From assembly GCA_934643865.1 (NCBI GenBank), contig CAKUCX010000006.1, forward strand, positions 16,936 through 80,935: a DNA stretch of 64,000 bases, in the 5' to 3' direction. Of this stretch, positions 1 through 55,350 are shown piece by piece. A model generated the notes under the pieces. That model was not told where the DNA came from, did not search any database, and saw only the letters and a program-made list of their open reading frames with translations. Numbering within the stretch: the first letter of the stretch is position 1; each line of letters opens with the position of its first letter. Source of the DNA: an uncultured Kiritimatiellota bacterium. GTDB taxonomy: Bacteria > Verrucomicrobiota > Kiritimatiellia > RFP12 > UBA1067. The position numbers were made by a program, and so were the translations under genes.

Positions 1-15
1 ATGTCGGGTAGGTAG

Positions 16-237
16 GGCGCGCGAAGTACCCGCGCCGCCTCGGCACGTGGCGTCCTACCCCCCCCCTGTCTCATATTTCTTCCATGGTCGATTTCCCAAT
101 ATGAGGTTATCGGCCCCTAGCCCACTTTTTATAAAATGTGGGCCAATGTACCCACACAGCCGAAAATCGAAACCATCCATCCGAACGGGCCGTTGCACAG
201 TGCCACGCGCCGAGGCGGCGCGGGTACATCGCGCGCC
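16..237. repeat. Inverted repeat pair, 36-bp arms (16-51 and 202-237), about 150-bp spacer
   Basis: GGCGCGCGAAGTACCCGCGCCGCCTCGGCACGTGGC at 16-51 is the reverse complement of 202-237 with 2 mismatches. It lies at the window edge. Confidence 0.6.
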
Positions 238-731
238 GGGCCAGGTGCGTGGCGTTCAGGACCGGTGCGTGGCGTTGTGAGGGAATTGGTCTGGTACCCA
301 CGTATCGGATACCACGTATCAGAACAACGCAGGGAACAACACGGGGACTCGGTGGCGGCCGCACCGTCCGCAAGCGCCACGTCACCGAGCGTAGGCGGCG
401 CACCATCGCACGCGAGCGTCGCGCCCACCGCCACGTCCCAAGCCGCCGCAGCCTCCTCGGACCCCTGCTCCTGTATGAGACCGCAGGACCTGTAAAAACT
501 CACGCCAACAGGCCAAACGCTTGTATTTTCAGGCCGTCCTGGACTTCGGCCCCGGCGGAATGGGACAGCAGACGCGCTGATAGGGCCGTTTTCTCGGGGA
601 TGGTGTCATCGGGCTGAAAAACCTGCTTCAGGCGGGGAGAAGATAACTCATAGATTCGTTCGAGAATGACGTTTTATACGGCGTCATGAAATCGTGCTTT
701 GTCTGAGTGGAACGGCAGTGAATTTGATTGA

Positions 732-2726
732 TTACGGATTCTTGTCTCGCTTCAATATCTCAATCCTGCAAAGATACACATCGGATGGCGCACCCGTGCC
801 GAATGACGGCATTTTGAAGGTCTTTATGAATCGGAGCCGGTATTCTTTCGCGTGTTCACGATAATGTTGCAGATTGTATGCGTGCTGCGAATCAGCGAGC
901 GCGTAGAGTTTTGCGTCAGGCTCGCTTTTCAGTATGGATTCAATCACTGGTATGGGGTCGCTGTTCGCGGCGAAAGTGGTGGCGGTCCTTATCGGAAGCG
1001 ACATGAGCATCTGGTTGGATCGTTCGCCTATGACGATTGCATCCTTCGGCAAGAGTGCGGCCAATTCCCTAGCTGCGGCCTCATGTTGATGCATTCCACT
1101 CCTGACAAGCTCGCAGAACGATGATCGCCAGTTTGGAGTTGCAAGATAGCATGACAAAATGCAAGCGGGGATGACGAACAAAAGAATCCGACGCCAGGGC
1201 AACCTTTCTTTGAAACCGAATACGGCGACAAGGAACAAAACGGATATGACGAGTGAAATGGCCATGGGCGAAAAATACTCGCTGGGTGATTTCTTGATGT
1301 GACTTGCCAATTGCACGGCTGGGAAAGGCGCGAATACGACTGATGCAGCCACAAACGAAGTTGCTATCCAGACAACCGCATTGACCTTGATAGATCTAAA
1401 TCCGTGCAGAAACGCAACAACAATGGAAACAGAAACGACGAAAGCGAATATCATTTGCCAAGTCATGCCCCAAACGTTTTTTGCCGGCAGATTGTATATC
1501 CGCGAGTAGAAGTTCTGGCTTGTCGCCGGCGGAATCGACACCGATGCTGCGAATATCAGCCCTACGGCGCAAAGCGCAAAAGTCAGAAGTAGCGGCAACA
1601 AGGCCTTGCCCCATGTCGTACGCTCTTCTAAAATGGAACATTGCTCCAATTCAGATGCAATGGCAAAGGAAAGAATCGGCAGTATCACGATTACCGGAAG
1701 GAAATAGTGCGTATAGATGGTGTTCATCACCGATATCGCGGCAACATATGCGGGAACTGCGAGAAACAGCAACAGATGCCCATTCCATCTTTTTGCCAGG
1801 GCGTTTCTTGCAGCCATTGCGATTGGAATCGAAAGCATCAGCGGTGCGACAACGCCGAGAAGCTGGATGGATGGGTCGCGTGGAAATGACGAAATTCCCT
1901 TGAAGTGCGACGCGAAGTTGAAGAGCGGCGGCAATGGATAGTGCGTGGTGGTTTTCCTGACAATCTCCCATATCGACACACCGACCCTGGCGGCGTCTGG
2001 CATGACGGATAGCGCCACTATAAATTTATACGCGAACGCGGCTGCGACGGCGACACCAACGAACAGCAGCAGATCCTTGGTGCTGTCACGCAGACTTCTG
2101 TCCCGGGCCACCCCTGCGGCCACGATAGGAAGCAATGCCCATACGCTTGGCTTCACTAGGATTATCGCCCCCGACAGCAGCGCAGCGCAGATAATCCGCC
2201 ATCGCTTTCCTCCAGCGGCGCAAACATACGAAATGACCAGAAGAGCACCTATTAGGGCATCGTTGCTCGCGGTACGCTCGTATGCCACGACCATCGGCAC
2301 GAGCGACACGGAAGTGCAGAGCGCGAATGCCGTTGTCGCCCCCGCCCTCTTGGCTAAGTGCAGGAACGCAAAGAGCCATGCGGCAAAATAGACGCAAAGA
2401 AAAGGGATGCGCCATGTCCATGTGGACAGTCCGAATGCGAGATGCGATGCGTAGCTCAGCCAATGCGTTCCAGCGGAGAATCCGTAGGTGAACGCCTCGT
2501 TTCGCGGCAGATCGACAAAGTGGTTCCAGACAAATTTCTCCTTTCCTCCAGAAAGGTAATAACCCTCATCAGTTGCGTTATAGCCGTATTCCCAGATTGA
2601 CGGTATGCCTGGATCGCAGTCGATCCACGGCAGACGGAAGAGCAGATAGATCACGGAAAAAGCTACAAGCAGCAGCCAGAACTTCATTCGGCCGTCTTTG
2701 CGGATACAAAGCCTCGAAATTTCCAT
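732..2726 (-). CDS. Polytopic membrane protein, GT-C-type glycosyltransferase-like (ArnT/PMT_2-like)
   Basis: 664-aa ORF with many hydrophobic spans and an acidic DEGYY loop after the first TM, as in GT39/GT83-type enzymes. It has a soluble C-terminal domain. AAGGA lies 9 nt upstream of ATG 2726 (alternative ATG at 2687). The region is visibly AT-richer than its flanks. Confidence 0.45.
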   Translation of the reverse strand: MEISRLCIRKDGRMKFWLLLVAFSVIYLLFRLPWIDCDPGIPSIWEYGYNATDEGYYLSGGKEKFVWNHFVDLPRNEAFTYGFSAGTHWLSYASHLAFGLSTWTWRIPFLCVYFAAWLFAFLHLAKRAGATTAFALCTSVSLVPMVVAYERTASNDALIGALLVISYVCAAGGKRWRIICAALLSGAIILVKPSVWALLPIVAAGVARDRSLRDSTKDLLLFVGVAVAAAFAYKFIVALSVMPDAARVGVSIWEIVRKTTTHYPLPPLFNFASHFKGISSFPRDPSIQLLGVVAPLMLSIPIAMAARNALAKRWNGHLLLFLAVPAYVAAISVMNTIYTHYFLPVIVILPILSFAIASELEQCSILEERTTWGKALLPLLLTFALCAVGLIFAASVSIPPATSQNFYSRIYNLPAKNVWGMTWQMIFAFVVSVSIVVAFLHGFRSIKVNAVVWIATSFVAASVVFAPFPAVQLASHIKKSPSEYFSPMAISLVISVLFLVAVFGFKERLPWRRILLFVIPACILSCYLATPNWRSSFCELVRSGMHQHEAAARELAALLPKDAIVIGERSNQMLMSLPIRTATTFAANSDPIPVIESILKSEPDAKLYALADSQHAYNLQHYREHAKEYRLRFIKTFKMPSFGTGAPSDVYLCRIEILKRDKNP

Positions 2727-3117
2727 TTCATGATTTCCTTACTGCATCCTCCGCAGAACCTCCCCCCAGCGTGTAGTATCCACTCTCGCCCGCTCATACC
2801 GGCCGCCCCTCTCTGCGGGCACGTAGACCAAAGGTCCAAAACCGCTCGGCTTTGTGCCCCCTTGCAAAGGCATGAATCTCATCACGCTTCACGGCTCTTT
2901 CGTCCATCACGTACATGCGCGCACATCCTCCGCCCATGTTCCACGCCACCGTTTCAGGGCATGGCGCGTCCAAAGGGGAAAGACGCAGACAGTTTAGCAT
3001 TCCCGTCCCCAAAGGTCAATGGAAGCAGCAGGTTTTTCAGGCGCCCGCCCGGCGCTGCGCCCGCCCGGCGCGACAGGTGGTCGTCAGGAGCGGCAGATAC
3101 TCCTTCTGCCGGTAGGG

Positions 3118-5399: not shown

Positions 5400-6953
5400 T
5401 CAAGAGAAGAGGACGCGGAAGGCGGGGGCCAGGCGCGCGCGGAGGGTCGCGGCGACGGCGCGCGCGTCGGCCGTCCAGCCGTAGAGCGCGGCGAAGGCGG
5501 CGGCGTACGCGGCCGAGACGGCGGCGGCGCAGCCGAACCAGCCCAGCCAGCTTTCCGGCTCGGGCGCGAGCAGAGCCTTCGCGCCGGCGGAGAACGCGAC
5601 GGGGAGGAGCGTGAGCGCGGCGTACTGCCGCCAGTACGCGCCAAGCGGACGGTCGAAGCGCAAGCGGAAGAGCAGATAGGGGCCGCGCCAAAACGCCGTC
5701 AGCCCATAGGAGACGATCGTCCCGACAAGGACTCCCGCGAGGCCGAGCGGGCCTACGAGCGCGACGGAGACGGCGACGTTGAGCGCCGCCTCGATGAGCG
5801 GGCGCGGCTTGTCGCGCACGAAGAGCCCGGAGGCCGTAATATTCGCGCCGACCGTACACCACGAATTCTGGAGATAGAAGAGAACGCAGAGGACGACCTC
5901 GACGCCCGTGCCAAGGCAGAAGCGCGCGCCGAGCCAGAGGCGGATGAACGGCCCGACGAGGAGGAAGAGCCCCGTCGCGGCGAAGCCGCTGAGCGCGAGG
6001 TTCAGGAACTGCATCTTGCGAAAGAGGCGGTAGACGTCCACGGGCGCGAGCGTCGCGTAGGCGTTGCCGTAGTTCGAGGTGAAGACGCCGAGGAACTGCC
6101 CCAGCAGGCGCGCGAGCGCGGAGACGAGGAGCGCGTAGTTGGAGTAGAGGCCGACCGCCGCGAGGCCGACGAACTTCGAGAGGACGATGCTGTCCGTCGA
6201 GCTGACGACCGTACCGCCGACGCGGTGAAGCATGAACGCGCCGGCGTCCTTGAAGATCTCGGCCTTCTCCGCGCGCGGCAGGCGCTCGCAGACGGCGAAG
6301 ACAGCCCGGTAGCGCCGCGTCGTCCAGGCGCTGAGGAGCCCGTTGAACGCGAGGACGAACGCGACGCCGGAAGCGAGCGTCCAGACGAAGCTGCGCGTCA
6401 GCCAGAGGACGAGGATCTGGACGGCGAAGCGTCCCGTCTCGGAGACCATCGACGCGAAGAGCGCGACGTGGTTCTTCCGGTCGGCGTTCCAGATGGAGAG
6501 GCGGTAGGAGAAGAGGTAGGTGGAGACGCTCTGCGCGAGGAAGAGGAGGTAGACGACGTTCAGGTTCACGTCGCCCGGCACGTCGGAGGCGTCCCTGACG
6601 AGGTGGCCGACGAACGGGAAGAGCGCAAGCCCAAGGGAGAGGACGACGAGCGCGACGAGGAGGTAGACCTGGCGGAAGAAGCGCATGAGCCGCCCGACCT
6701 GCACGACGTCGCCGGCGGCGATCGGCTTGTAGAAGCGGTAGCAGATGGCGGCCCCGACGCCGAGCTCGGCGAGGGCGAGGAGGCGGAAAACGTCCCAGAA
6801 GAGCCCGTTGATGCCGAGGTAGCGCTCGGAGAGGAGGGCGATGAACGCCGTGCGGTAGGCAAAGCCGGCGGCGACGTTGACGACGTGGCAGAGCGTCCCG
6901 ACGCCGGACGCGCGGAGCATGCTCGCCGCGCGGCTCTGGCGGTTGAAGGTCAC
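5400..6953 (-). CDS. Polysaccharide flippase / Wzx-type (MOP superfamily) membrane protein
   Basis: 517 aa, GTG start, about 12-14 hydrophobic spans. It resembles lipopolysaccharide/oligosaccharide flippases and sits with GT and esterase neighbours. Confidence 0.55.
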   Translation of the reverse strand: MTFNRQSRAASMLRASGVGTLCHVVNVAAGFAYRTAFIALLSERYLGINGLFWDVFRLLALAELGVGAAICYRFYKPIAAGDVVQVGRLMRFFRQVYLLVALVVLSLGLALFPFVGHLVRDASDVPGDVNLNVVYLLFLAQSVSTYLFSYRLSIWNADRKNHVALFASMVSETGRFAVQILVLWLTRSFVWTLASGVAFVLAFNGLLSAWTTRRYRAVFAVCERLPRAEKAEIFKDAGAFMLHRVGGTVVSSTDSIVLSKFVGLAAVGLYSNYALLVSALARLLGQFLGVFTSNYGNAYATLAPVDVYRLFRKMQFLNLALSGFAATGLFLLVGPFIRLWLGARFCLGTGVEVVLCVLFYLQNSWCTVGANITASGLFVRDKPRPLIEAALNVAVSVALVGPLGLAGVLVGTIVSYGLTAFWRGPYLLFRLRFDRPLGAYWRQYAALTLLPVAFSAGAKALLAPEPESWLGWFGCAAAVSAAYAAAFAALYGWTADARAVAATLRARLAPAFRVLFS

Positions 6954-6962: not shown

Positions 6963-7030
6963 TTTCTTGCAAGGCCGAGACGCCGGGCGGCAGACGGGGA
7001 CATTCTCTCAACAGACGGCATGCTCACTTG

Positions 7031-7375
7031 TCAACTCCTGAAGATGAAGAAGACCGCCGCGAAGATGCAGACCGCGGCCGCCAGGTAGTTCCATGAGACG
7101 GGCTGGCGCATCACCAGCACCGAGAACGGCATGAAGACGAGGAGCGTGACCGCCTCCTGCGTGATCTTCAGCTGCTCCAGCGTCATCGTCTTCGCGCCGA
7201 TCCGGTTGGCGGGGACGGCCACGCAATACTCGACGAATGCGATCAGCCACGAGACGAGGATCGCCATCCAGACCGGCGCGCCCGACAGGCTGCGCAAGTG
7301 GCCGTACCAAGCGTAGAGCATTACGAGGTTCGACACGCAGAGAAGCCCCACGGTCATCCAATTGACGTTTGACAC
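7031..7375 (-). CDS. Small DMT-superfamily membrane protein (DUF486-like)
   Basis: 114 aa with four hydrophobic helices. The sequence VEYCVAVPANRIG...LKITQE is typical of the DUF486/DMT family. Confidence 0.6.
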   Translation of the reverse strand: MSNVNWMTVGLLCVSNLVMLYAWYGHLRSLSGAPVWMAILVSWLIAFVEYCVAVPANRIGAKTMTLEQLKITQEAVTLLVFMPFSVLVMRQPVSWNYLAAAVCIFAAVFFIFRS

Positions 7376-7404
7376 AGGTTAAACTCTTTCTTCCGAATGG
7401 TTAG

Positions 7405-8880
7405 TTATCGACAGTTTTCTGCAATGGGGTCAGACCCCATAGATACCCTGAAATAATATCCACCCGTTTTCTTGCTGCCGCGATGCTCAATCGAACCGTC
7501 GGCAACCAGTTTTGCAAGGACCCGCTCAACCGTCGCCTTGCTCTTGCCCGTCAGCATCACCAACTTTGGTTTGTTGATGCCCGGAGCAGATCTTATCGCC
7601 TCATTTATCACCTCATTTATCGCCTCATTTATCGCCTCATCGCCCCGTTCAACGGCCTTTGCATCCTCTATTATCGCATTGGGGGCCGCGCGGACGCAAA
7701 CCATGAGATCCCCTGGCTCGCCGGGATTGACCGTATAGTGCGGTTGCGGGCATCCGTGCTTGCGGCATTCCCGCATGACCTTCTCTATGCCACGTCCCCA
7801 TGTCTCAATCTTGCCCGTCAGATAGACACATCCGGCGACAGTGGGATTCGCAGGACGGGAGACATGCTTCTTCATCAACGTCTCAACCGTCCAAGTCTCA
7901 GGAAGCGAGCCGACATTCGCAACATACAACCTGTCGGCATAAACACTGATCTGAATCGGAATCCCGCTTGAATAATCCTTGTGGACAAGCGCATTGAAAA
8001 TCAATTCGCGCAACCCTTCCTTTGGGAACGGGAACTTCTCGACACGCTGTTCGCCGTTCTCATACCAAATCTTCGCCTTAAGATACTTGAAATAGATGAG
8101 ATCAAGCGTCTTCTCCGCCTGTTCAAGCAAGGAGCCATGTACGTCATCATGGTACATCAAATCCGCGTCATCCACGCCAAACATCCCGACCTTGACGTAC
8201 GCACCCGGAATCCACTTCTCTGCCTTCTCCGAGAACAGAAGCGCGGCAGCATACGTCAGGCCATCCTTGGCGACAAGATGGAGGTTCGTGACAAATGCCT
8301 CCTTGGACTCCCGGCGCACCGAGTCATCCAGTCGTCCCTTGTCGATGGACAAATCCTTGAATCGCTTGATTTCCCGTGCCGAAACGTCCTTCATTTTGAA
8401 TCGAGGGCAGGGCAGATTCTCCCAGTGAAGTCCCCGGCGTCTGAGAAGGAACGCCTCCAGCCCCGGCCCCGAGAGTCGCTGGTTCGTCGCGCCGCGCCGG
8501 ACATAATAGACACCACGAAGCGAAATCGGAACCGGATACGCGGGAACGACAATCTCAATGACATCCTTATTCTTCAGTTTCAGATGGTTGACCTCGGCGA
8601 TCATTCCCATCGTATCGCGCATCACGTTGGGAATCGTTTCAAGAAGTGTCTTCCAGTCGGCAACACCGACAACCTCATTGTCCCTCTTGTCATCGGCAAC
8701 GCCAATGAGCATGCGTCCGCCCTCGGCATTGGCAAACCCACAGATCCACTTGAGATATTCCTCTCGCCAGCTCTGCTTGTATTCGGTGTTCTGGTCTTCT
8801 TTCCGCATAGAATCCTTTTGTTTGATGACTGTGCGGATTTCGTCAAGCGATCCACATTCAAGTCGTGTTTCACTTTGCAT
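7405..8880 (-). CDS. AlbA_2 (Schlafen-like 'divergent AAA') + HATPase_c_4 + C-terminal wHTH protein (COG2865-type, often annotated RecG-like)
   Basis: 491 aa. TEYKQSW...ICGFANAEGGRMLIGV is the AlbA_2 signature. NALVHKDY...GRGIEK is the HATPase_c_4-like part. The gene is AT-rich and contains an (INEA)4 12-bp tandem repeat. Confidence 0.7.
   Translation of the reverse strand: MQSETRLECGSLDEIRTVIKQKDSMRKEDQNTEYKQSWREEYLKWICGFANAEGGRMLIGVADDKRDNEVVGVADWKTLLETIPNVMRDTMGMIAEVNHLKLKNKDVIEIVVPAYPVPISLRGVYYVRRGATNQRLSGPGLEAFLLRRRGLHWENLPCPRFKMKDVSAREIKRFKDLSIDKGRLDDSVRRESKEAFVTNLHLVAKDGLTYAAALLFSEKAEKWIPGAYVKVGMFGVDDADLMYHDDVHGSLLEQAEKTLDLIYFKYLKAKIWYENGEQRVEKFPFPKEGLRELIFNALVHKDYSSGIPIQISVYADRLYVANVGSLPETWTVETLMKKHVSRPANPTVAGCVYLTGKIETWGRGIEKVMRECRKHGCPQPHYTVNPGEPGDLMVCVRAAPNAIIEDAKAVERGDEAINEAINEVINEAIRSAPGINKPKLVMLTGKSKATVERVLAKLVADGSIEHRGSKKTGGYYFRVSMGSDPIAENCR
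7593..7640. repeat. 12-bp tandem repeat x4 (TTATCGCCTCAT), in frame, encoding EAINEAINEVINEAI
   Basis: Read directly from the sequence; it lies inside the AlbA_2 gene. Confidence 0.85.
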
Positions 8881-8915
8881 CAGGACCTTCTAACGAATGA
8901 TCTCTTGATAGGGGA

Positions 8916-9812
8916 TCACGCTTTAGCGTATTTTCTGAAAGTTCGCCCCATCACAATGGCCGTATTCTTCATCCATTGGAATGCTTTCATGCGCGTCTCT
9001 TCATCAAAATCACGAAAATCACCAAGTTCATTACGCACAATGATTCGACTGGCATCCTTTTCTTCCAACGGCTGCCATTCAGGCACGAAGCCGAGATCCG
9101 TCTCGATATCTTCTTTCTTCTCCAGGAGGCTGGCGTACAGCTTTTTGTTCTTGGGGATGTAGAACTCGACACCAACCCCATTCTGCCGCACATTTATCGT
9201 AAGCGAAATATGTCCGGCGGAAACACCACATCCTAGATCAACCCAATGATCAGACGGGGCTTTTCGTCCAGCACGGAAGACTTTAACATATTCAGGGTCT
9301 TGGTCGGCGAACGCGAAAAACGCCGCCCAATACCCACGGCGCGCGGCAAGAGTCTCGTCAAACTTGCCGCGAGTGGCGTCCGCTGCCGCAGATTCCTCTT
9401 TTTCTTTCTTTGTTTCCTCATACTTCACCAACTCACCACCCGTCAGACCCGCGATCTGTTCCAACAGTTCATACGCTTCTTCTGCCTCCATCTGAAAGAA
9501 TTCGCGCTGACGGACAACCTTCCCAGACGCATTCTTCTCCACCGTTCGCAAATCCGAGCGGAGCATATCTATCAGCCTGTGTACATAGATGTCGCTACGG
9601 GCTGAACCGCTGTCCTCGACCGCGAGCGTCGCGTAGATCTTGAATGAAAACGGAACGGCCGTGCTGCCGTCAAGCTCCCGCTTGCGCTGTTCGACATTCG
9701 CCGCCCATCCAATCTTCACATACTCCTTGAAACTCGGATTGGTCATGATATAGATATAACCTTTATTCACACTTGCATCTCCGTTTGTTTGCTTATCACA
9801 ATTGTACAACAC
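8916..9812 (-). CDS. T5orf172/MUG113 (GIY-YIG-like) N-terminal domain fused to DUF4268
   Basis: 298 aa. GYIYIMTNPSFKEYVKIGWA...RELDGSTAVPFSF is the T5orf172 pattern. The C-terminal half (YWAAF...HISLTINV...VGVEFYI) resembles DUF4268. The gene is AT-rich. Confidence 0.6.
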   Translation of the reverse strand: MLYNCDKQTNGDASVNKGYIYIMTNPSFKEYVKIGWAANVEQRKRELDGSTAVPFSFKIYATLAVEDSGSARSDIYVHRLIDMLRSDLRTVEKNASGKVVRQREFFQMEAEEAYELLEQIAGLTGGELVKYEETKKEKEESAAADATRGKFDETLAARRGYWAAFFAFADQDPEYVKVFRAGRKAPSDHWVDLGCGVSAGHISLTINVRQNGVGVEFYIPKNKKLYASLLEKKEDIETDLGFVPEWQPLEEKDASRIIVRNELGDFRDFDEETRMKAFQWMKNTAIVMGRTFRKYAKA

Positions 9813-9834
9813 AAAGGGCCTCAGATATCATCCG

Positions 9835-9984
9835 TCAATTATTCCAGCCAATTCGAGTCAAGAATGAGTTTAATCGCCTTAATTGCGCCTGAGTCAGCCA
9901 CACCATCTCGTTCTCAAGCCGTACATCCAATCGAATGGTCTCGTTCGGCTGATAAATGACAATCTGATTCTCGGCGTTGTCCAT
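9835..9984 (-). pseudogene. N-terminal fragment of a RhuM-family gene
   Basis: A 49-codon ORF, MDNAENQIVIYQPNETIRLDVRLENEMVWLTQAQL..., matches the conserved RhuM N-terminus. It then diverges and stops, whereas full-length proteins are about 330 aa. Confidence 0.55.
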
Positions 9985-10139
9985 GTCCGTCACGCTCTTT
10001 CTGCCCACTTTCAAGCCTACATTATATCATTTTCGTCTCATCGCCCTGGCGAATAAAGATCCGCGCGCAGACGCCATGTTCGATACTCCTTCTGAACTCA
10101 TCCGTGCGGCGTTTGGCCCGGAGGCGGATCGGAAGAAGC

Positions 10140-17779: not shown

Positions 17780-17816
17780 AGCCTTGCTACCTTTCATTTC
17801 CTTGCTGCTCCTTTCG

Positions 17817-19490
17817 TCATCCAACCGCCTGCACAGGCGTTTCAAAAGGCTCCCTCCGCTTCATGGCCGGATCCGGCACGCACTGGGCAGCCGCCCGCTG
17901 AACGACAGCATCGACGGCCGCATCGACGGCCGCGCGGCCACGCTCGCCGTACAATGCCGCGAGACGCTCGACGTCGGCCATGGAAAGGCTTTTGGCATGG
18001 GGGATGCGGACGTTTCGGAGGTTCTGCGCCTGGTAACGTATGAACCCGCCCCGCATCTCGGCCGAAAGGCATCTCATCTGGTTTGTCACAAAAGAGCTGC
18101 GCATCAGCACGCAGAGCGCCCGAAGATCCCACCCCTTTGACGTGATCCAGTATACATTGTGATGCGGGTAAAGGCGGCCACGCTCGTCCAGCGCGACATT
18201 TCCGCCGACCTGGATGTCCGGTAGGAGGAGCTTCGGGCTCCTCAACACGCGATAACGGATGCGATCCAGCGTCCGATACCACGCATCGGGATGTTTCTTC
18301 GCGCAGTAGCGCCCCTTGAGCCGCCCGGCATGCGCCTCAAGATAGCCCGCCATCTTTGGATAGTCCGCCAGATCCTTCATGAGCCTGTCGTCGTCGTTGT
18401 CATACGGGTTCAAGATGTAGTGGCCGCGCCAGTTGGCCACGCCGTCCGCGATGTCGCCCGCCATCACCAACGGCAGAAGGCACCCCTCCTCCAGGTCGCA
18501 GGCCCTCTGCGCATCGACATAGAGATCGTCGGCGCCGGACGCGACGCCGATTCCGATGCGCGTCCCGGGCGCCGATTCCTCAATGACAGGGAAGGCCCTT
18601 GACGCCCACTCCGCGAAATCACGGCGGTCGCGGCTCGTCGAGATCCACGGCGCCTCATCGCGATACCAGCTGTCGAATGCCGAGAGGTTCCCCCTGGACG
18701 CCCTGTTTTCCCGCAGCGTCTTCCGGGAGGCGTCGCCAATCGTCTTCGCAAGCGTCCTCTCGCCGACATGGCGGTCGAGGACGCAGATTGCCGGATAGGC
18801 CGAAACCTCCTCCTCGAACGGCTGGGCGTGCTCCATGTTCAGATAAAGGGCGACCCTGTATTCCCGTGAGATCAGCGAACGCAACCTCCTCCCGTAGCTG
18901 CTTTTGGCGAAGCGGTTCGAGCAGATGAACGAAAGCACGCCGTCCGCCGCCAGCAGCGACAGGGCCTTTTCGAAGAACGGGACGTAGATGTCACAGCGCG
19001 CCGAGAACGTCTTGTACCGTGACTTGTACTCGCCCTGCAGCTGGGGGGCGAGGGCGTCAAAGCGGATGTAGGGGGGATTGCCGATCACGACATCGAAGTT
19101 CCGCGCAAAGCCGTGAAGCAGGAAATCGCAGCGGACGAACCACGTGCGGACAAGCTCCTCGGCCCGCCCGCTCGGGCATCCCCGGCCCAGCAGCACGGAC
19201 TTCGTCCGGGAGGCGACCGCTTCAATGTTGTCCTCTGAAATGTCGCATGCCGTCAAGAAGGAATCCAGCCGCGCATCCGTCCAGTCCGCGACTTCGGCAA
19301 GGACCTTCTCGACCAACGGCAGGACGAATGCGCCCCTTCCGCAGCTTGGCTCAAGGACGCGTGCGCCCAACCACTTCCGGATCCTTCCAAAATAAGCGAC
19401 CTCGTGGATCATGTGGTCGACGACTTCACGCCGCGTAAAGACCTCCCCTGTGACGTTCCGGCGGACCGTTCTGGACATTCGCGAGGTCAT
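17817..19490 (-). CDS. Type II N6-adenine DNA methyltransferase (Eco57I/TaqI-like gamma class; M.PaeR7I/M.XhoI-like)
   Basis: Motif I is EPSCGRGAF and motif IV is VIGNPPYIRF. The gene has a 4-nt overlap with the upstream endonuclease gene. Confidence 0.8.
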   Translation of the reverse strand: MTSRMSRTVRRNVTGEVFTRREVVDHMIHEVAYFGRIRKWLGARVLEPSCGRGAFVLPLVEKVLAEVADWTDARLDSFLTACDISEDNIEAVASRTKSVLLGRGCPSGRAEELVRTWFVRCDFLLHGFARNFDVVIGNPPYIRFDALAPQLQGEYKSRYKTFSARCDIYVPFFEKALSLLAADGVLSFICSNRFAKSSYGRRLRSLISREYRVALYLNMEHAQPFEEEVSAYPAICVLDRHVGERTLAKTIGDASRKTLRENRASRGNLSAFDSWYRDEAPWISTSRDRRDFAEWASRAFPVIEESAPGTRIGIGVASGADDLYVDAQRACDLEEGCLLPLVMAGDIADGVANWRGHYILNPYDNDDDRLMKDLADYPKMAGYLEAHAGRLKGRYCAKKHPDAWYRTLDRIRYRVLRSPKLLLPDIQVGGNVALDERGRLYPHHNVYWITSKGWDLRALCVLMRSSFVTNQMRCLSAEMRGGFIRYQAQNLRNVRIPHAKSLSMADVERLAALYGERGRAAVDAAVDAVVQRAAAQCVPDPAMKRREPFETPVQAVG

Positions 19491-20227
19491 GAACGTGCCC
19501 GAAGGAAAAGATAGAGCGACTTGAAGAAGGCGTAGGCGGAGACGCCGCCCCCGCCATCACGCACGGTCGCCGTGTCCTTGTCCGAGAGGACCAAGGCCGC
19601 CGCATGATAGTCGCGCTCAAGCATCAGCCGCTCACAAAGGATTTCGTAACGGCGGAGATACGAAGACCCGACAAAGACATCCATGGGCGGAATCGGGCTC
19701 TTGCCGAGGGCCACGGGGTACGTGGAAGCCTCCGAATCCTCGACAAAGAGGAAATACCCCAGCCAGGGCGGCGCGATCACGCCAAACGCCTTCTCGCGGT
19801 ATGCCGTCCAGAAATCGCGCGCGACGCCAAGGGCCTCCTCGGAGCGATTGTTGAAGTTGTTTCCGAAACTTCCGCTCTGGGATTTCAGCTCAATTACCGC
19901 AACAAGCTGAACGCCCCTCAAGAAAACGACATCCCAATTCTTCTGCGGACGATAATACCCCGGGATCGGCACCGCCGCGTTGAAGAAGATCTCGTCCGGG
20001 CCAAAGCCGGCGGCGATTCCGACGTCCCGGATCAACGCGGCGAACCCATCCAACTGCCTGCCTCCCGTGACCTGCCCGCGCGTCCCGGCGTCGCGCCCGC
20101 CACGGCTCCTCTGCTTGTCGGCCTGATCCCGGCGCGTTGCCCAGTACATCCTGGCCGCACCGTGCAGCTTGGCGAAGAGGTCTTCACGTGTAAAGGGCAG
20201 GTCCATCGTGTCGGCGTCCTTTTTCAT
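19487..20227 (-). CDS. XhoI/PaeR7I-family type II restriction endonuclease
   Basis: 246 aa. RDAGTRGQVTGGRQLDGF...VIELKSQSGSFGNNFNNRSEEALG matches my recollection of the XhoI-family (PF04555) core. Confidence 0.7.
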   Translation of the reverse strand: MKKDADTMDLPFTREDLFAKLHGAARMYWATRRDQADKQRSRGGRDAGTRGQVTGGRQLDGFAALIRDVGIAAGFGPDEIFFNAAVPIPGYYRPQKNWDVVFLRGVQLVAVIELKSQSGSFGNNFNNRSEEALGVARDFWTAYREKAFGVIAPPWLGYFLFVEDSEASTYPVALGKSPIPPMDVFVGSSYLRRYEILCERLMLERDYHAAALVLSDKDTATVRDGGGGVSAYAFFKSLYLFLRARS

Positions 20228-28864: not shown

Positions 28865-28880
28865 GGGGGGGGGGGGGGGG
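28865..28880. repeat. G16 homopolymer
   Basis: Sixteen consecutive G between the two divergent promoters, at the left edge of the cas remnant. Confidence 0.95.
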
Positions 28881-28887
28881 CAAACTG

Positions 28888-28896
28888 TGCTATACT
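28888..28896 (+). promoter_or_regulatory. TGCTATACT extended -10, 7 nt upstream of ATG 28904 (leaderless-type)
   Basis: The sequence reads TGCTATACT-ACCGAGC-ATG. Confidence 0.45.
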
Positions 28897-28903
28897 ACCG
28901 AGC

Positions 28904-29548
28904 ATGGACGTGAAGCATCTCATTGCCGTGGCCGCCGGCGCGGCGGCGGCCGTGCAGGGACGCCTCTGGCGGCAGGTTGTCCGCGCGAAGATCCTCAACC
29001 AGTCCGAACTGTTGCGCCGTCTGGGATTTGACACATGCCGTCGCCTGCGGGTGATGGCCGACGAGGTGAAGAACTACGATGCGGAGAATGTCGAGGCCCA
29101 GGCGGCGCGCATCTATTTCCGTGCGCTGGCGCCCGATCCCGGATTCGTTCGTGCGCGCGAGGGAACATGGCCGAACCCTGCGCTCAACTACGGCTATGGC
29201 GTCTTGCGGGCGGCCGTCGCCCGTGCGCTTGTCGGTTCCGGGCTCACCTGCTTTCGCGGGGTCCATCACCACAACCGCTACAACGCCTTCTGCCTCGCGG
29301 ATGACATGATGGAACCCTACCGGCCTTTTGTTGATCAGTACGTCTTCGGACATGTTCCGCCTTTCGACGTCCAGGCAACTGAACTGACACGCGAGATGAA
29401 GGCGCGGCTTCTGCAGATGCTGACGTGTGACGTGAAGACGGGTGACCTCAAACGCCCGCTGATGGTCGCCCTGACCTACACGACGGCCTCGCTTGCCAAG
29501 TACTATCTGGGCAAGACCGACCACCTTGTCCTCCCGTCCTTCCTGTGA
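28904..29548 (+). CDS. cas1: Type II Cas1 lacking the N-terminal beta-domain (5'-truncated cas1; ORF still intact)
   Basis: LWRQVVRAKILNQ aligns to SpyCas1 VWTTIIAQKILNQ (around residue 95). Catalytic-region motifs are retained: EAQAARIYF, NYGYGVL, HHHNRYNAF, ADDMMEPYRP. About 90 N-terminal residues have no coding space because the mannitol-DH-family gene is adjacent. Confidence 0.75.
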   Translation: MDVKHLIAVAAGAAAAVQGRLWRQVVRAKILNQSELLRRLGFDTCRRLRVMADEVKNYDAENVEAQAARIYFRALAPDPGFVRAREGTWPNPALNYGYGVLRAAVARALVGSGLTCFRGVHHHNRYNAFCLADDMMEPYRPFVDQYVFGHVPPFDVQATELTREMKARLLQMLTCDVKTGDLKRPLMVALTYTTASLAKYYLGKTDHLVLPSFL

Positions 29549-29892
29549 CGCTCTGTACGCAGACGGCCCTCAACGGATATGCGATTGTGTGGCTCTACGT
29601 GATGTTCGACCTGCCCGTGGAGACCAAGGCGCAGCGCCGCCTGGCGACGCGCTTTCGCAAAGATCTCCTCAAGGACGGCTTTGCCATGCACCAGTATTCC
29701 GTCTACATCCGGCATTGCGCGAGCCATGAGGCCGCAACCGTCCACATCGGACGGATCAAGAGCCTGGTGCCGGACGAGGGACTTGTCTCCATCCTCAAGG
29801 TGACGGACCGCCAGTTCGGCGACACCGTCCAGTTTGTGGGCCGGAAACGGAAGCCGCCTCCGCCGACACCGCTTCAGCTCGAATTTTTCTAG
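29545..29892 (+). CDS. cas2: Type II Cas2
   Basis: WLYVMFDLPVETKAQRRLATRFRKDLLKDGFAMHQYSVY aligns with SpyCas2 [38 protein letters not shown]. The GTG start overlaps the cas1 TGA. Confidence 0.8.
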   Translation: MTLCTQTALNGYAIVWLYVMFDLPVETKAQRRLATRFRKDLLKDGFAMHQYSVYIRHCASHEAATVHIGRIKSLVPDEGLVSILKVTDRQFGDTVQFVGRKRKPPPPTPLQLEFF

Positions 29893-29982
29893 GAAAGCAT
29901 CCAACAGAGGGTTTGGAACGCCATTCTGAAGGAAATTTCCAGAATCAAAATCCTTGATTTTGCCTTGTCAGTAAAGGGCGAT

Positions 29983-30029
29983 GTCGCTCCAATACTGAAA
30001 AACAATTTCAAAGAGCATCAAATCACAAC
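29983..30029 (-). CRISPR. Solitary CRISPR-repeat-like (or tracrRNA anti-repeat-like) 47-mer; no array
   Basis: The minus strand reads GTTGTGATTTGATGCTCTTTGAAATTGTTTTTCAGTATTGGAGCGAC. It resembles long type II-C repeats that begin GTTGTGATTTG (recalled from memory). Only one copy is present, 90 bp after cas2 in an AT-rich leader-like stretch. Confidence 0.3.
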
Positions 30030-30041
30030 GATACTGCCATT

Positions 30042-31079
30042 TCACCACGGCAGAAACCAGTATACTCCATTGTTTGTTTGAACGTCAATAGCGTCCCATC
30101 CTGGACGGGCGTGGTCGCGGTCAAGGACCCAGCGCGCCGCACCGCGCCATGCTCCCAATGTTCCGCGCCGCGCCCGTCGCCCCGCCTCCGCCTCGCCCAC
30201 TCGCGCCGGGTTCACCAAGGCGTCGATGCGGTTGAGGTAGGCCGTCCGGCTCCTCGGTGTCTCCCGCATCACTTCGGCGTAGACCTCCCGCGCCCGCACC
30301 ACCTCCACGGCATCGTCCACCGCCGGCGTCTCCACGAGCCGCGCCGCCGGTACGGGATCGCGGAGGCCCGTCATCTGCTTGAGCTTCCGCGCGGCCGCCT
30401 TGTAGGCCATCACCGTCTTGTACTTGAGGTAGAGTGCCGGGATGTTCGTCTGGAGCCATGCCTTCACGCCTCCCCGGCGGGCGACGATCTCACCGCTCTC
30501 CGCACGCACAAGGGAACTATCGACGTAACAGGCCAGGTCCTCCATCAACGAGCCGAACCTAAGAAGGTCCTCGTTCGATTCGCGGACTCTCTCCCACGCC
30601 TCCAGCAGCTGTTCCTTCGTCGGGCACGGATTCGTCGTCGTGCGCCGCTTCGCCGCGCGCCGTTCCGCCGCGAGCCGCTGTCGGCGTGCCTTCTCCCGTT
30701 CGTAGTAGGCGGAACGGCGCGACGCATGGCGGAGACGGTCGATCCTCCGCGTTGCGCCGAGGCGCAGCCAGCGCGCGAGCGTCCGCAGCAGCCAGACGTC
30801 GCCGTCCGCGTAGGCGACGATCTCGCGGACGGACGTGCCACGCCGCAGCCACGCGACGGCAAGCCCCTCCGACGCCTCGCAGAGGTCGCCGAAGGCGCGG
30901 CGGCGGTCCTGGATGCGTTTCCGCCGCGCCCGGGCGCGGTGTTCGCGCGCGGCCAGGATTTCGCCCAGCAACGCCTCGTGCCGCCGATCGAAGTCAGACG
31001 AGGCGGCGGAATGAACGGACGCCTCAGGGACGCCGGGGGCGTCTGCCGGGACGACGGTCGTGGAAGGATGTTCAGGCAT
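30042..31079 (-). CDS. Hypothetical Arg-rich protein
   Basis: About 345 aa from MPEHPSTT. No family recognised. TGTTATCAT lies 6 nt upstream of the ATG. The gene is convergent with cas2. Confidence 0.4.
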   Translation of the reverse strand: MPEHPSTTVVPADAPGVPEASVHSAASSDFDRRHEALLGEILAAREHRARARRKRIQDRRRAFGDLCEASEGLAVAWLRRGTSVREIVAYADGDVWLLRTLARWLRLGATRRIDRLRHASRRSAYYEREKARRQRLAAERRAAKRRTTTNPCPTKEQLLEAWERVRESNEDLLRFGSLMEDLACYVDSSLVRAESGEIVARRGGVKAWLQTNIPALYLKYKTVMAYKAAARKLKQMTGLRDPVPAARLVETPAVDDAVEVVRAREVYAEVMRETPRSRTAYLNRIDALVNPARVGEAEAGRRARRGTLGAWRGAARWVLDRDHARPGWDAIDVQTNNGVYWFLPW

Positions 31080-31257
31080 GGGCCTATGATAACACAGGAA
31101 CGGGAGAATGACAAGACTACGGTGCGGACGAAATCCTGTTTTCGCCTTGAACCGTCTCATGGAAAACCAACCGCGTCGAGAGCTGTCGCGCGGGGAGCTT
31201 GAAATCCGCCTTTTGGCATGGATGTTCCCCGGCCAAAGCAGCACGCCCGCCTCCCGT

Positions 31258-31396
31258 TGGGCTGGCGACCGGATTGCTTGGGCTGGCAACTGGATTGCGT
31301 GGGCTGGCGACCGGATTGCTTGGGCTGGCGACCGGATTGCTTGGGCTGGCGACTGGATTGCGTGGGCTGGCGACCGGATCGCTTGGGCTGGCGATC
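31258..31396. repeat. 21-bp tandem repeat, about 6.6 copies (TGGGCTGGCGACCGGATTGCT)
   Basis: Units start at 31258, 31279, 31300, 31321, 31342 and 31363, with a partial unit at 31384. Each unit has 0-3 substitutions. Confidence 0.9.
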
Positions 31397-54148: not shown

Positions 54149-54405
54149 GGTTAAGTCGCCGCTGCGCGGCTTTGAGTGGTTAAGTGGTTAAGTAGTTAAG
54201 CTTAAGTAGTTTAGGTTTAAATAATAACGAAATAGGGTAATTTTTTGCCACAAAGAACGCAAAGACCGTAAAGGCGTTGCGTTTTTTGTGGCGCGCAATA
54301 TTTGATTGCCGAAGGAACGCCTACTCATCTCTTCAACTTAAGCACTTAATTACTTAAATACTTTAACTTAACCACTTAACCACTTAACTACTTAACCACT
54401 TAAGG
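54149..54405. repeat. AT-rich dyad module: GGTTAAGT octamer array (left), ACGCAAAG-type hairpin (54247-54292), ACTTAANN octamer array x9 (54336-54405, right)
   Basis: GGTTAAGT occurs at 54149, 54178 and 54186, then decaying units run to about 54225. ACTTAACC-type 8-bp tandem units run from 54336 to 54405. The central hairpin arms are GCCACAAAGAACGCAA / TTGCGTTTTTTGTGGC. Confidence 0.85.
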
Positions 54406-55293: not shown

Positions 55294-55342
55294 AGGTTTT
55301 AGGTTTCAGGTTTCAGGTTCTAGGTTTTAGGTTTTGGGTTTT
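55294..55342. repeat. 7-bp tandem repeat x7 (AGGTTTY)
   Basis: AGGTTTT AGGTTTC AGGTTTC AGGTTCT AGGTTTT AGGTTTT GGGTTTT fills the 69-bp gap between the GH stop and the pssA start. Confidence 0.9.
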
Positions 55343-55350
55343 AGCCAAAC

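What the first reader, a model, noticed from the sequence alone, without database searches (positions are those of the whole stretch)
28865..30029. Eroded type II CRISPR-Cas locus: N-truncated cas1 + intact cas2 + one repeat-like 47-mer, without cas9 or array
The Cas1 homology starts at about residue 95 of type II Cas1 (LWRQVVRAKILNQ). The alpha-helical catalytic domain is intact, with the E/H/D regions EAQAARIYF, HHHNRYNAF and ADDMMEPYRP. The missing N-domain and all of cas9 have no room, because the divergent mannitol-DH-family gene starts 110 bp away. The truncated ORF has acquired its own ATG directly behind a TGCTATACT -10 element and is still translationally coupled to a full-length cas2 (GTGA overlap). 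It therefore looks expressed rather than simply decaying. Ninety bp after cas2, in an AT-rich leader-like stretch, the minus strand carries one 47-mer beginning GTTGTGATTTG that resembles long type II-C repeats. Small hairpins lie next to it (29946-29962, and the GGAAATTTCC palindrome). No second copy exists. The locus could be a fossil, a retained mini-Cas1/Cas2 module with a non-adaptation role, or a tracrRNA remnant.
Basis: partly seen in the sequence, partly recalled or inferred. Interest (0 to 1): 0.7.

Follow-up and report, generated by a model that had tools for sequence, protein, structure and literature searches.

The report
Decayed type II-C CRISPR-Cas relic
This is the leftover stump of a Cas9-type CRISPR immune system in a human-gut Kiritimatiellia bacterium: half of cas1, all of cas2 and one repeat. 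Related strains show several stages of the same decay, so it is a tidy but ordinary example of how bacteria lose CRISPR.

Summary
Window 28904-29548 encodes only the C-terminal catalytic domain of a type II Cas1. 29545-29892 is a full cas2, and one CRISPR repeat follows. There is no cas9, tracrRNA or array.

Three corrections:
- The repeat is 36 nt (29994-30029, minus strand), not 47. It is identical to the repeat of intact cas9-cas1-cas2-array loci in closely related gut Kiritimatiellia, which match 28937-30029 at about 97% without gaps.
- The ORF's ATG, its TGCTATACT box and its first 11-17 codons are not Cas1. They copy the 5' end of a GH88/DUF4861 gene. The fusion to cas1 codon 96 is in frame, at a GC-rich microhomology.
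- The tracrRNA of intact loci lies upstream of cas9 and is deleted here.

The same chromosomal site occurs in more than 20 metagenome assemblies at earlier stages of decay. These carry a cas9 fragment fused at the same cas1 breakpoint, with either six repeats and five invariant spacers or one repeat. One allele has a premature stop.

Best reading: a non-functional relic made by stepwise deletions and array collapse. cas1ΔC-cas2 still shows low dN/dS (about 0.1, against 0.33 for the dead cas9 fragment). Allele exchange with intact loci can explain this, so retained function is not excluded.

The parts
28865..28880 (.). Left breakpoint of the relic. The mannitol-DH-side flank ends at 28865 and a run of G follows (15-16 G in this window).
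   Evidence: The flank is shared with the cas9-fragment form L016 up to 28865. The G-run length differs between assemblies: G15 in the window, G16 in L001, 'CGGGGGG' in L099. The L002 contig instead starts with 27 C. The length is therefore unreliable or hypervariable.
28881..28936 (+). Captured 5' end of a GH88/DUF4861 gene. It holds the extended -10-like TGCTATACT (28888-28896), the ATG at 28904 and codons 1-11 (MDVKHLIAVAA), which form the start of a signal peptide.
   Evidence: It aligns to the native TonB-receptor-adjacent GH88 gene (L117, L118, L120) with 3 differences. It is 85% identical to the GH88 start in L005 and L007. The -10 box ends 7 nt before the ATG and no Shine-Dalgarno sequence is visible, so a leaderless start is inferred.
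28937..28954 (+). Fusion junction: the GC-rich microhomology GGCGCGGCGGCGGCCGTG (Gly-Ala-Ala-Ala-Ala-Val). Either parent could have contributed it.
   Evidence: Alignments A1 and A2. cas1 reads GCGCGACGGCGGCCGTG, cas9 reads GCGCGGCGGCGGCCG and GH88 reads GGCGTGGCGGCCGTCGTG. All three are in the same Ala-codon frame.
28904..29548 (+). Chimeric 214-aa ORF: GH88 start fused to Cas1 residues 96/102-298, the C-terminal catalytic domain only.
   Evidence: Family matches. The DNA from 28937 on is 97% identical to intact cas1. The exact protein is present in 10 contigs.
29545..29892 (+). Full-length cas2 (115 aa). Its GTG start overlaps the cas1 stop, as in intact loci.
   Evidence: Family matches. 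It is 99.1% identical to Cas2 of L005. The same exact protein also sits next to full-length Cas1 in L100.
29893..29993 (.). Native cas2-to-array region, the integration-side 'leader' of type II-C. It is AT-rich and holds small hairpins.
   Evidence: It is conserved in all intact loci. A cluster of 6-7 substitutions at 29900-29920 defines a second haplotype that the window shares with L016 and L105.
29994..30029 (-). Single 36-nt CRISPR repeat, the product of array collapse.
   Evidence: It is identical to all repeats of L011 and of the six-repeat remnant arrays. It differs by 1 nt from the repeats of L004, L005 and L007. Sister alleles at the same site have 6 repeats followed by the same right flank.
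30030..30088 (-). Native flank on the far side of the former array. It carries a promoter-like site, TTGACG-18-TATACT (30088-30059), that points into the repeat.
   Evidence: The same flank follows the last repeat in L107 and L016. The promoter scan gave 10 of 12 matches, with 0.4 sites expected by chance in the region. Function was not tested.

Best explanation
The locus is a dead relic of a type II-C CRISPR-Cas cassette (tracrRNA, cas9, cas1, cas2, array) in a human-gut Kiritimatiellia lineage.

How it formed: recombination at a short GC-rich motif, GCGCG(A/G)CGGCGGCCG, removed cas9, the tracrRNA and the first 95 codons of cas1. That motif occurs in the same reading frame in cas9, in cas1 and in the signal-peptide region of a GH88/DUF4861 gene. 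Repeat-repeat recombination then collapsed the array to one repeat. In the window's version, the 5' end of the GH88/DUF4861 gene (a -10-like box, the ATG and about 11-14 codons) is fused in frame to cas1 codon 96.

What it can still do: the stump probably still makes a chimeric Cas1 C-terminal domain plus Cas2. Without Cas9, tracrRNA, the Cas1 N-terminal domain and spacers, it can neither acquire spacers nor interfere.

Shown: the homologies, the junctions, the missing parts, the intermediate forms, the invariant spacers and one nonsense allele.

Inferred: the deletion mechanism, the order of events, expression, and loss of integrase activity.
For: 1. Descent. Window 28937-30029 is about 97% identical, without gaps, to intact cas9-cas1-cas2-array loci L004-L015 and L017.
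2. Missing parts. The window has no cas9 or GH88 body (tblastn), no Rfam hit and no anti-repeat. The tracrRNA of intact loci sits upstream of cas9. It has the anti-repeat GCAUCUUAUCACAAC, an AAGGCUAUAUGCC hairpin and the terminator GGCCCGGUUCGCCGGGCC followed by Us. Its duplex with the repeat is -23.7 kcal/mol, z = -2.4. The window's intergenic pieces give z = -1.3 to +1.6.
3. Missing Cas1 domain. Cas1 lacks residues 1-95, the N-terminal domain.
4. Decay series at the same chromosomal site. L106-L115 carry flank, cas9 nt ~100-415, cas1 from nt 287, cas2, then 6 repeats and 5 spacers. L016 is the same with 1 repeat. The window has the cas9 piece replaced by the GH88 5' end.
5. Adaptation has stopped. 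The five spacers are identical in all ten six-repeat loci fetched by one exact-protein look-up, which come from Hadza, MERR22 and other samples. Intact arrays differ at their cas2-proximal end and share old spacers at the far end. That is the polarity described for type II-C (PMC12080349).
6. Microhomology at both kinds of junction.
7. Signs of decay. L116 has TGG>TGA in the cas1 part. P0131 has E>K in the conserved MEPYRP motif, and some alleles have a 3-nt deletion in the cas9 piece.
8. Not an artefact. The W-type junction is seen in separate assemblies, including L099, which has a short clean G tract.
Against: - No allele of the window's own type (W) has a frameshift or stop.
- cas1ΔN and cas2 among remnant alleles show pN/pS of 0.11 and 0.08. 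That is as low as between intact loci. The cas9 fragment in the same alleles shows 0.33, and the same cas9 stretch in intact loci shows 0.05. Remnant-specific changes are 8 N: 26 S in cas1ΔN-cas2 against 12 N: 12 S in the cas9 fragment (Fisher p = 0.051). This pattern is what continued constraint would give.
- Both fusions are in frame, and the window's form gained a promoter-like start.
- The order of events is not resolved. It could be a patch replacing the cas9 fragment, or one 7.4-kb deletion in a GH88-cas9-cas1 arrangement like L005.
Confidence: 0.7

Rival explanations
1. The Cas1 catalytic domain plus Cas2 is kept by selection as a two-gene module with a role outside adaptation, for example a nuclease or toxin-like or regulatory function. 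In the window's form it is expressed from the captured GH88 start.
For: pN/pS is low in cas1ΔN (0.11) and cas2 (0.08) among truncated alleles, against 0.33 in the adjoining cas9 fragment at similar pS. Remnant-specific changes are biased toward synonymous (8 N: 26 S against 12 N: 12 S, p = 0.051). The ORFs are open in nearly all of more than 20 distinct alleles. Both fusion types are in frame. The catalytic E, H and D motifs are intact. Synonymous diversity in the relic (0.056-0.067) is at least as large as in the flanking genes (0.017-0.038), so the truncation is not very recent.
Against: - Alleles are mosaics. Intact proteins carry the window's 'private' residues (P0001 has T44 and V50), so exchange with selected intact loci can produce the same statistics.
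- In-frame junctions are expected anyway, because the microhomology is an Ala-codon run in the same frame in all three genes.
- One allele has a stop and another has a change in a conserved motif.
- No family of N-truncated Cas1 exists beyond this one locus: all other relatives are 297-300 aa.
- The tests are marginal and rest on few alleles.
Confidence: 0.15
2. The remnant is a spare part. Cas2, and in sister alleles the mini-array, would work in trans with an intact type II-C cassette elsewhere in the same genome. That cassette would also keep the remnant homogenised by gene conversion.
For: The same species has strains with an intact cassette directly downstream of GH88. GH88 is 99.15% identical between L005 and L117/L118. 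An identical Cas2 protein occurs beside full-length Cas1 in L100. Remnant and intact alleles share polymorphisms. The repeats are the same, so a Cas9 supplied in trans could use remnant crRNAs.
Against: No sample among those displayed yielded both an intact locus and a remnant. In sample ERZ27286944 the native GH88 is followed by T2SS genes, not by a CRISPR cassette. The five remnant spacers are frozen and absent from the intact arrays that were fetched. The window holds no second cas locus.
Confidence: 0.08
3. The arrangement is an assembly or duplication artefact: a chimeric contig joined through a poly-G sequencing artefact or through the shared GH88 5' stretch.
For: A 15-16 G run sits exactly at the left breakpoint, and one contig starts there with 27 C. 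L003 joins the native TonB-GH88 flank to the remnant across a 45-65 nt identical stretch and may be chimeric.
Against: The mannitol-DH-to-cas1ΔN adjacency is found in at least 9 contigs, and 10 contigs carry the exact protein, from different samples and assemblers. In L099 the junction reads GAAGCGGGGGGCAAACTG with no long homopolymer. The captured segment has its own 3 differences from the native GH88 copy.
Confidence: 0.02
4. The lone repeat is a functional solitary repeat unit (an RNA anti-CRISPR or a regulatory crRNA-like RNA) or a tracrRNA remnant, rather than debris.
For: A promoter-like site at 30088-30059 points into the repeat on the crRNA-sense strand. The repeat itself is perfectly conserved among remnant alleles, 0 differences in 36 nt.
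Against: Sister alleles show that the repeat arose by collapse of a six-repeat array with the same flanks. No viral contig carries this repeat. Neighbouring genes have no phage-family hits. The real tracrRNA lies elsewhere in intact loci and no anti-repeat signal exists here.
Confidence: 0.03

Closest known systems
Intact type II-C CRISPR-Cas cassettes of related gut Kiritimatiellia (L004-L015, L017; e.g. MAG CAKUGW010000066.1)
   Same: cas1 from codon 96, cas2, the 101-nt cas2-array region and the repeat are 96-98% identical. The cas1/cas2 overlap is the same. The repeat sense is the same and is fixed by the tracrRNA anti-repeat.
   Different: Those loci have a tracrRNA, a 1205-1224-aa Cas9, a 298-aa Cas1, 14-35 repeats and a conserved far-end region with a degenerate repeat. 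They also sit in other genomic contexts: downstream of GH88, or downstream of a 970-aa gene.
Canonical type II-C architecture (Neisseria meningitidis, Campylobacter jejuni)
   Same: The gene order is cas9-cas1-cas2 without csn2 or cas4. The array lies downstream of cas2 and is read on the opposite strand. New spacers enter at the cas-proximal repeat, which is the 'last' repeat in transcription sense (PMC12080349). The intact relatives fit this pattern.
   Different: The window keeps only the acquisition-side stump. No clear -10 box is visible inside the repeat (read from the sequence, own judgement). The Cas9 of the relatives is larger than the compact type II-C enzymes.
Degenerate or orphan CRISPR-Cas remnants in other bacteria, such as lone repeats left where a system was lost in Escherichia coli lineages (from my own knowledge, not checked here)
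   Same: The effector gene is lost, partial adaptation genes remain and a lone repeat is left at a fixed chromosomal site.
   Different: Here the intermediates survive in the population, the junction sequences show microhomology, and the truncated cas1 became an in-frame chimera with another gene's start.
Solitary repeat units / RNA anti-CRISPRs of phages and plasmids (from my own knowledge)
   Same: A single CRISPR repeat with no array.
   Different: This one is chromosomal, sits beside its own cas2 and native leader, derives from array collapse, and is not found on viral contigs.

Membership tests
Functional type II-C CRISPR-Cas locus | cas9 effector gene | tested here: not met
   tblastn of the L005 Cas9 against the 64-kb window gave no hit. 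Only 109 nt separate the ORF from the divergent mannitol-DH gene.
Functional type II-C CRISPR-Cas locus | tracrRNA with an anti-repeat | tested here: not met
   The tracrRNA of intact loci lies upstream of cas9. It has no counterpart in the window. No piece of the window's intergenic DNA gives a significant duplex with the repeat. Rfam gave nothing.
Functional type II-C CRISPR-Cas locus | Full-length Cas1 (N-terminal domain plus catalytic domain) | tested here: not met
   Only profile positions 96-277 of 278 are covered. Query residue 18 aligns with residue 101 of solved Cas1 structures.
Functional type II-C CRISPR-Cas locus | Cas2 | tested here: met
   TIGR01573 at 1.3e-17, above its cutoff. 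Cas2_II at 2.1e-42. 99% identical to Cas2 of intact loci.
Functional type II-C CRISPR-Cas locus | CRISPR array (at least 2 repeats with spacers) | tested here: not met
   The window has one repeat only.
Functional type II-C CRISPR-Cas locus | Subtype II-C: no csn2 or cas4 beside cas9-cas1-cas2 (judged on the intact relatives) | tested here: met
   In L004-L015, cas2 is followed directly by the array and no further cas genes are called.
Cas1 family (PF01867 / TIGR03639) | C-terminal alpha-helical domain with the conserved Glu, His and Asp | tested here: met
   179.6 bits against a cutoff of 120. EAQAAR, HHHN and DDMMEPYRP align with the equivalent motifs of 5XVN.
Cas1 family (PF01867 / TIGR03639) | Integrase activity with Cas2 | not testable with these tools
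   Loss is inferred from the missing N-terminal domain and from the invariant spacers in sister alleles.
Solitary repeat unit / RNA anti-CRISPR | Carried by a phage, plasmid or prophage and unlinked to cas genes | tested here: not met
   The repeat is absent from viral contigs. Neighbouring genes have no PHROGs hits. The repeat lies 101 nt from its own cas2.

The most novel reading that the evidence does not exclude
After Cas9 was lost, the Cas1 catalytic domain and Cas2 may have been kept by selection as a stand-alone module. The window's lineage would have re-armed it by capturing the leaderless start of a GH88 gene, placed behind a hypervariable G tract that could switch expression on and off. 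The low dN/dS relative to the dead cas9 fragment in the same ORF would then reflect real function and not allele exchange.
Probability: 0.1. Interest if true: 0.6.

Novelty: new member of a known kind. Interest (0 to 1): 0.3.

Why it matters
Loss of CRISPR-Cas is common, but it is rarely caught in several steps. At one chromosomal site in one gut species there are at least three surviving stages: a cas9 fragment with six repeats, a cas9 fragment with one repeat, and a GH88 start with one repeat. The junction sequences point to microhomology at a GC-rich Ala-codon motif as the cutting point.

This gives a concrete population in which to ask whether cas1-cas2 stumps are neutral debris or are kept for something. 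For annotation, it is a warning: a 'Cas1' call here is a chimeric half-protein, and this genome should not be scored as CRISPR-positive.

Tried and rejected
- Rfam, at gathering and at permissive thresholds, gave only chance-level hits.
- Searches for further copies of the 47-mer or of the repeat, and for tandem arrays in the window, found none.
- A scan of JGI metagenomes for the captured GH88 start gave 0 hits.
- Three frozen spacers and the repeat core were scanned against viral contigs, with 0 hits each. The spacers have no self-targets in the window or in the fetched loci. A self-targeting cause for cas9 loss could therefore not be shown.
- The repeat-like stretch in the leader (CTGAAGGAAATTTCCAGAATCAAA, around 29919-29945) was considered as an anti-repeat. 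It was rejected because its duplex energy is not above shuffles and the real tracrRNA was found elsewhere.
- I looked for an intact or empty version of this site through mannitol-DH relatives. The exact protein occurs only with the window-type relic. Relatives at 95% and 90% identity have MatE or RelB/AbiEii on that side and no CRISPR. The original state of the site stays unknown.
- The L003 form (TonB receptor, GH88 start, cas1ΔN) was first taken as a third context. It is probably an assembly chimera over the shared 45-65 nt, though a real recombinant is not excluded.
- The downstream 345-aa ORF has no Pfam, NCBIfam, PADLOC or PHROGs match.
- The structure-prediction and exhaustive-profile tools were not used. 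The sequence-level answers were unambiguous.
Full report
**1. What is in the window**

The plus strand carries a 214-aa ORF at 28904-29548. A 115-aa ORF at 29545-29892 overlaps it through a GTGA start/stop overlap.

The first ORF matches the type II Cas1 model TIGR03639 at E 7.5e-53 and 179.6 bits (cutoff 120). Only profile positions 96-277 of 278 are covered. Pfam Cas_Cas1 covers positions 99-256 of 283, and PADLOC Cas1_II agrees. Against solved structures, query residue 18 aligns with residue 101 of Enterococcus, Streptococcus pyogenes and S. thermophilus Cas1 (5XVN, 4ZKJ, 6QXF). The whole N-terminal domain is therefore missing, while the Glu, His and Asp motifs are present.

The second ORF is a complete Cas2.

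The divergent mannitol-dehydrogenase-family gene starts at 28794, 109 nt from the ATG. The window has no cas9 (tblastn), no array, no Rfam family and no second copy of the repeat. The 200 nt after cas2 are AT-rich, at GC 0.415 against about 0.7 nearby.

**2. Intact relatives and the true repeat**

The closest proteins are 298-aa Cas1 proteins from Kiritimatiellia metagenome assemblies. The nearest species-representative genome is a Kiritimatiellaeota MAG from a Nepalese gut sample.

Their contigs carry cas9 (1205-1224 aa), cas1, cas2 and then an array of 14-35 repeats of 36 nt with 29-30-nt spacers. There is no csn2 or cas4, so the subtype is II-C. Window 28937-30029 aligns to these loci at about 97% without gaps. 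The homology stops exactly at the end of the first repeat.

The real repeat in the window is therefore 29994-30029. The window's repeat (…TTGTTTTTCAGT) is identical to every repeat of L011 and of the remnant arrays. It differs by 1 nt from the repeats of L004, L005 and L007.

**3. tracrRNA and polarity**

In the intact loci a textbook tracrRNA lies upstream of cas9 on the opposite strand. It has the anti-repeat …GCAUCUUAUCACAAC, then AAGGCUAUAUGCCGAAG…, then the terminator GGCCCGGUUCGCCGGGCC followed by AUUUU. Its duplex with the repeat is -23.7 kcal/mol, z = -2.4 against shuffles.

Intact arrays share old spacers and a degenerate repeat at the end far from cas2, and they differ at the cas2-proximal end. 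That is the polarity described for type II-C, where spacers enter at the repeat that is last in transcription sense (PMC12080349).

The tracrRNA region has no counterpart in the window, and no window intergenic piece pairs with the repeat better than chance. The 'tracrRNA remnant' idea is rejected.

**4. The ORF is a chimera**

DNA homology to cas1 begins at 28937, which is codon 96. Upstream, 28888-28954 matches the start of a 1176-aa GH88/DUF4861 gene.

The native copy of that gene lies after a TonB-dependent receptor gene in the same species (L117-L121). From GCGGGGG through TGCTATACT, the ATG and MDVKHLIAVAAG, the window differs from it at only 3 positions.

The crossover lies in GGCGCGGCGGCGGCCGTG. 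This is a run of Gly/Ala/Val codons present in similar form and in the same frame in cas1, in cas9 and in GH88. The 'own ATG behind a -10' is thus a captured gene start. The -10-like box ends 7 nt before the ATG and there is no Shine-Dalgarno sequence, so a leaderless transcript is plausible (inference).

**5. A decay series at the same site**

The exact Cas2 protein and near-identical Cas1 parts occur in many assemblies, from Hadza, Nepal, 'MERR22' and other samples. Between the same mannitol-DH flank and the same right-hand gene, three forms occur:

| Form | Loci | Content between the flanks |
|---|---|---|
| Y6 | L106-L115 | Flank up to window 28865, cas9 nt ~100-415, cas1 from nt 287, cas2, leader, six repeats with five spacers, then the window's right flank GATACTGCCATTTCACC… |
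| Y1 | L016 | The same, with one repeat |
| W | the window, L001, L099, L101 | The cas9 piece is replaced by the GH88 start |

The cas9::cas1 junction uses the same motif, GCGCG(G/A)CGGCGGCCG. The Y-type ORF (308-309 aa) is a three-part in-frame fusion of flank ATG, Cas9 residues ~38-139 and Cas1 from residue 96.

The five spacers are identical in all ten six-repeat loci fetched, which share one exact fusion protein. Spacer uptake has therefore stopped. The window shares the solo repeat and a derived leader haplotype (6-7 changes at 29900-29920) with L016, but not with the Y6 loci L106-L115. The window's form therefore looks like the most derived.

How the GH88 start came in is unresolved. One route is a templated patch that replaced the cas9 fragment, since the left breakpoint is shared to within 2 nt. 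The other is a single 7.4-kb deletion in a GH88-tracrRNA-cas9-cas1 arrangement. That arrangement really exists in conspecific strains: the GH88 of L005 is 99.15% identical to the native gene.

L003 joins the native TonB-GH88 flank to the relic and is probably an assembly chimera over the shared 45-65 nt.

**6. Is it an artefact?**

The G run at the left breakpoint is G15 here and G16 in L001. In L099 it reads CGGGGGG. The L002 contig starts with 27 C at that point, so its length is either unreliable or hypervariable.

The junction itself recurs in independent assemblies, and in L099 it is clean. The arrangement is real.

**7. Debris or retained module?**

Signs of decay:
- L116 has TGG>TGA in the cas1 part.
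- P0131 has E>K in MEPYRP.
- Some alleles have a 3-nt deletion in the cas9 piece.
- The structural variants themselves are a sign of decay.

Signs of constraint come from the six Y alleles:

| Region | pS | pN | pN/pS |
|---|---|---|---|
| cas9 fragment (remnant alleles) | 0.073 | 0.024 | 0.33 |
| cas1ΔN (remnant alleles) | 0.067 | 0.0074 | 0.11 |
| cas2 (remnant alleles) | 0.056 | 0.0046 | 0.08 |
| Same cas9 stretch (intact loci) | 0.074 | 0.0035 | 0.05 |
| Mannitol-DH gene (flank) | 0.038 | 0.0053 | 0.14 |
| β-helix gene (flank) | 0.017 | 0.0005 | 0.03 |

Alleles seen only in remnants are 8 N: 26 S in cas1ΔN-cas2 and 12 N: 12 S in the cas9 piece (Fisher p = 0.051). For all segregating sites the counts are 12:36 against 12:12 (p = 0.062).

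This is what selection on cas1ΔN-cas2 would give. However, the alleles are mosaics with incompatible site patterns. An intact protein, P0001, carries the window's 'private' T44 and V50, and the remnant Cas1 parts lie within 1-3 residues of the intact consensus. Exchange with intact, selected loci can therefore explain the same numbers. I could not show whether any genome holds both an intact locus and a remnant. I treat retained function as a live minority reading.

**8. Context**

Relatives with 95% and 90% identical mannitol DH carry MatE or RelB/AbiEii on that side. The intact cassette sits in at least three contexts at 97-99% identity. A type II restriction gene lies about 9 kb upstream of the relic. 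The relic thus sits at a variable, defence-prone boundary. The downstream 345-aa ORF has no family match.

A promoter-like site at 30088-30059 points into the repeat on the crRNA-sense strand. It may be the old array promoter or a chance match.

**9. Verdict**

This is a real, correctly spotted, eroded type II-C locus. It is a new instance of a known phenomenon. It is made more informative by the surviving intermediates, the microhomology junctions and the chimeric start. Interest is modest (0.3). The only route to higher interest is proof that the Cas1 C-terminal domain and Cas2 module is maintained by selection.

Noticed in passing
window 28865-28880: A run of 15-16 G sits between the divergent mannitol-DH promoter and the captured -10 box. 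Its length differs between assemblies: G15, G16, CG6, and one contig that starts there with C27. It could be a two-colour-chemistry artefact or a truly hypervariable tract at the -35 position.
   Followed up: partly
window 29900-29920: Six or seven substitutions cluster within 21 nt of the cas2-array region (agagggtttggaacgcc against agatggttcaaagcacc). The two haplotypes both occur among remnants. Only the second occurs in the 11 intact loci compared. The cluster overlaps a small hairpin (ATGGT…ACCAT) and looks like a conversion patch, not independent point mutations.
   Followed up: partly
L004-L015, L017 (intact loci): The tracrRNA-cas9-cas1-cas2-array cassette is 97-99% identical across at least three unrelated genomic contexts. 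It has a conserved ~300-nt far-end region that holds a degenerate repeat. This suggests the whole cassette moves between strains or species.
   Followed up: partly
L005 2642-2708 against L118 9935-10000: The GH88/DUF4861 gene is 99.15% identical between strains overall, but its first ~67 nt and everything upstream differ (85% identity, then none). The gene start is therefore itself a rearrangement boundary with three different left neighbours: an Rce1-like gene, a TonB receptor gene and the mannitol-DH gene.
   Followed up: partly
window 31257-31394: A 21-nt tandem repeat, 6.6 copies at 90% match (also readable as a 63-nt unit, 2.2 copies). It lies between the BNR-repeat gene and the 345-aa ORF.
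   Followed up: no
window 54160-54400 and 55294-55344: Two short-repeat arrays in inverted orientation (GTGGTTAA-type octamers on one side, TTAACCAC on the other) flank an AT-rich ~100-nt core. About 900 nt further on there is an AGGTTTT heptamer repeated 7 times. Both bracket one minus-strand gene. They may be a protein-binding or origin-like region.
   Followed up: no
window 60849-63988: A long coding repeat with a 69-nt (23-aa) period, more than 40 units, running to the end of the window. It is probably a leucine-rich-repeat-type surface protein.
   Followed up: no
window about 17800-20206: A restriction-modification pair: an XhoI-like type II restriction enzyme (PADLOC 1.5e-61) next to an Eco57I-family gene, in a stretch of lower GC (0.61-0.62) about 9 kb from the relic.
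   Followed up: partly
window 10-53 and 202-237: A GC-rich ~40-nt element, present in both orientations at the start of the window. It resembles (84-86%) the sequence just beyond the tracrRNA terminator of intact loci (L005 ~6190-6234). It may be a dispersed repeat.
   Followed up: no
window 1-3000 and 7000-10000: Two blocks of markedly lower GC (0.50-0.56 against about 0.68 for the rest of the window). They may be foreign DNA.
   Followed up: no
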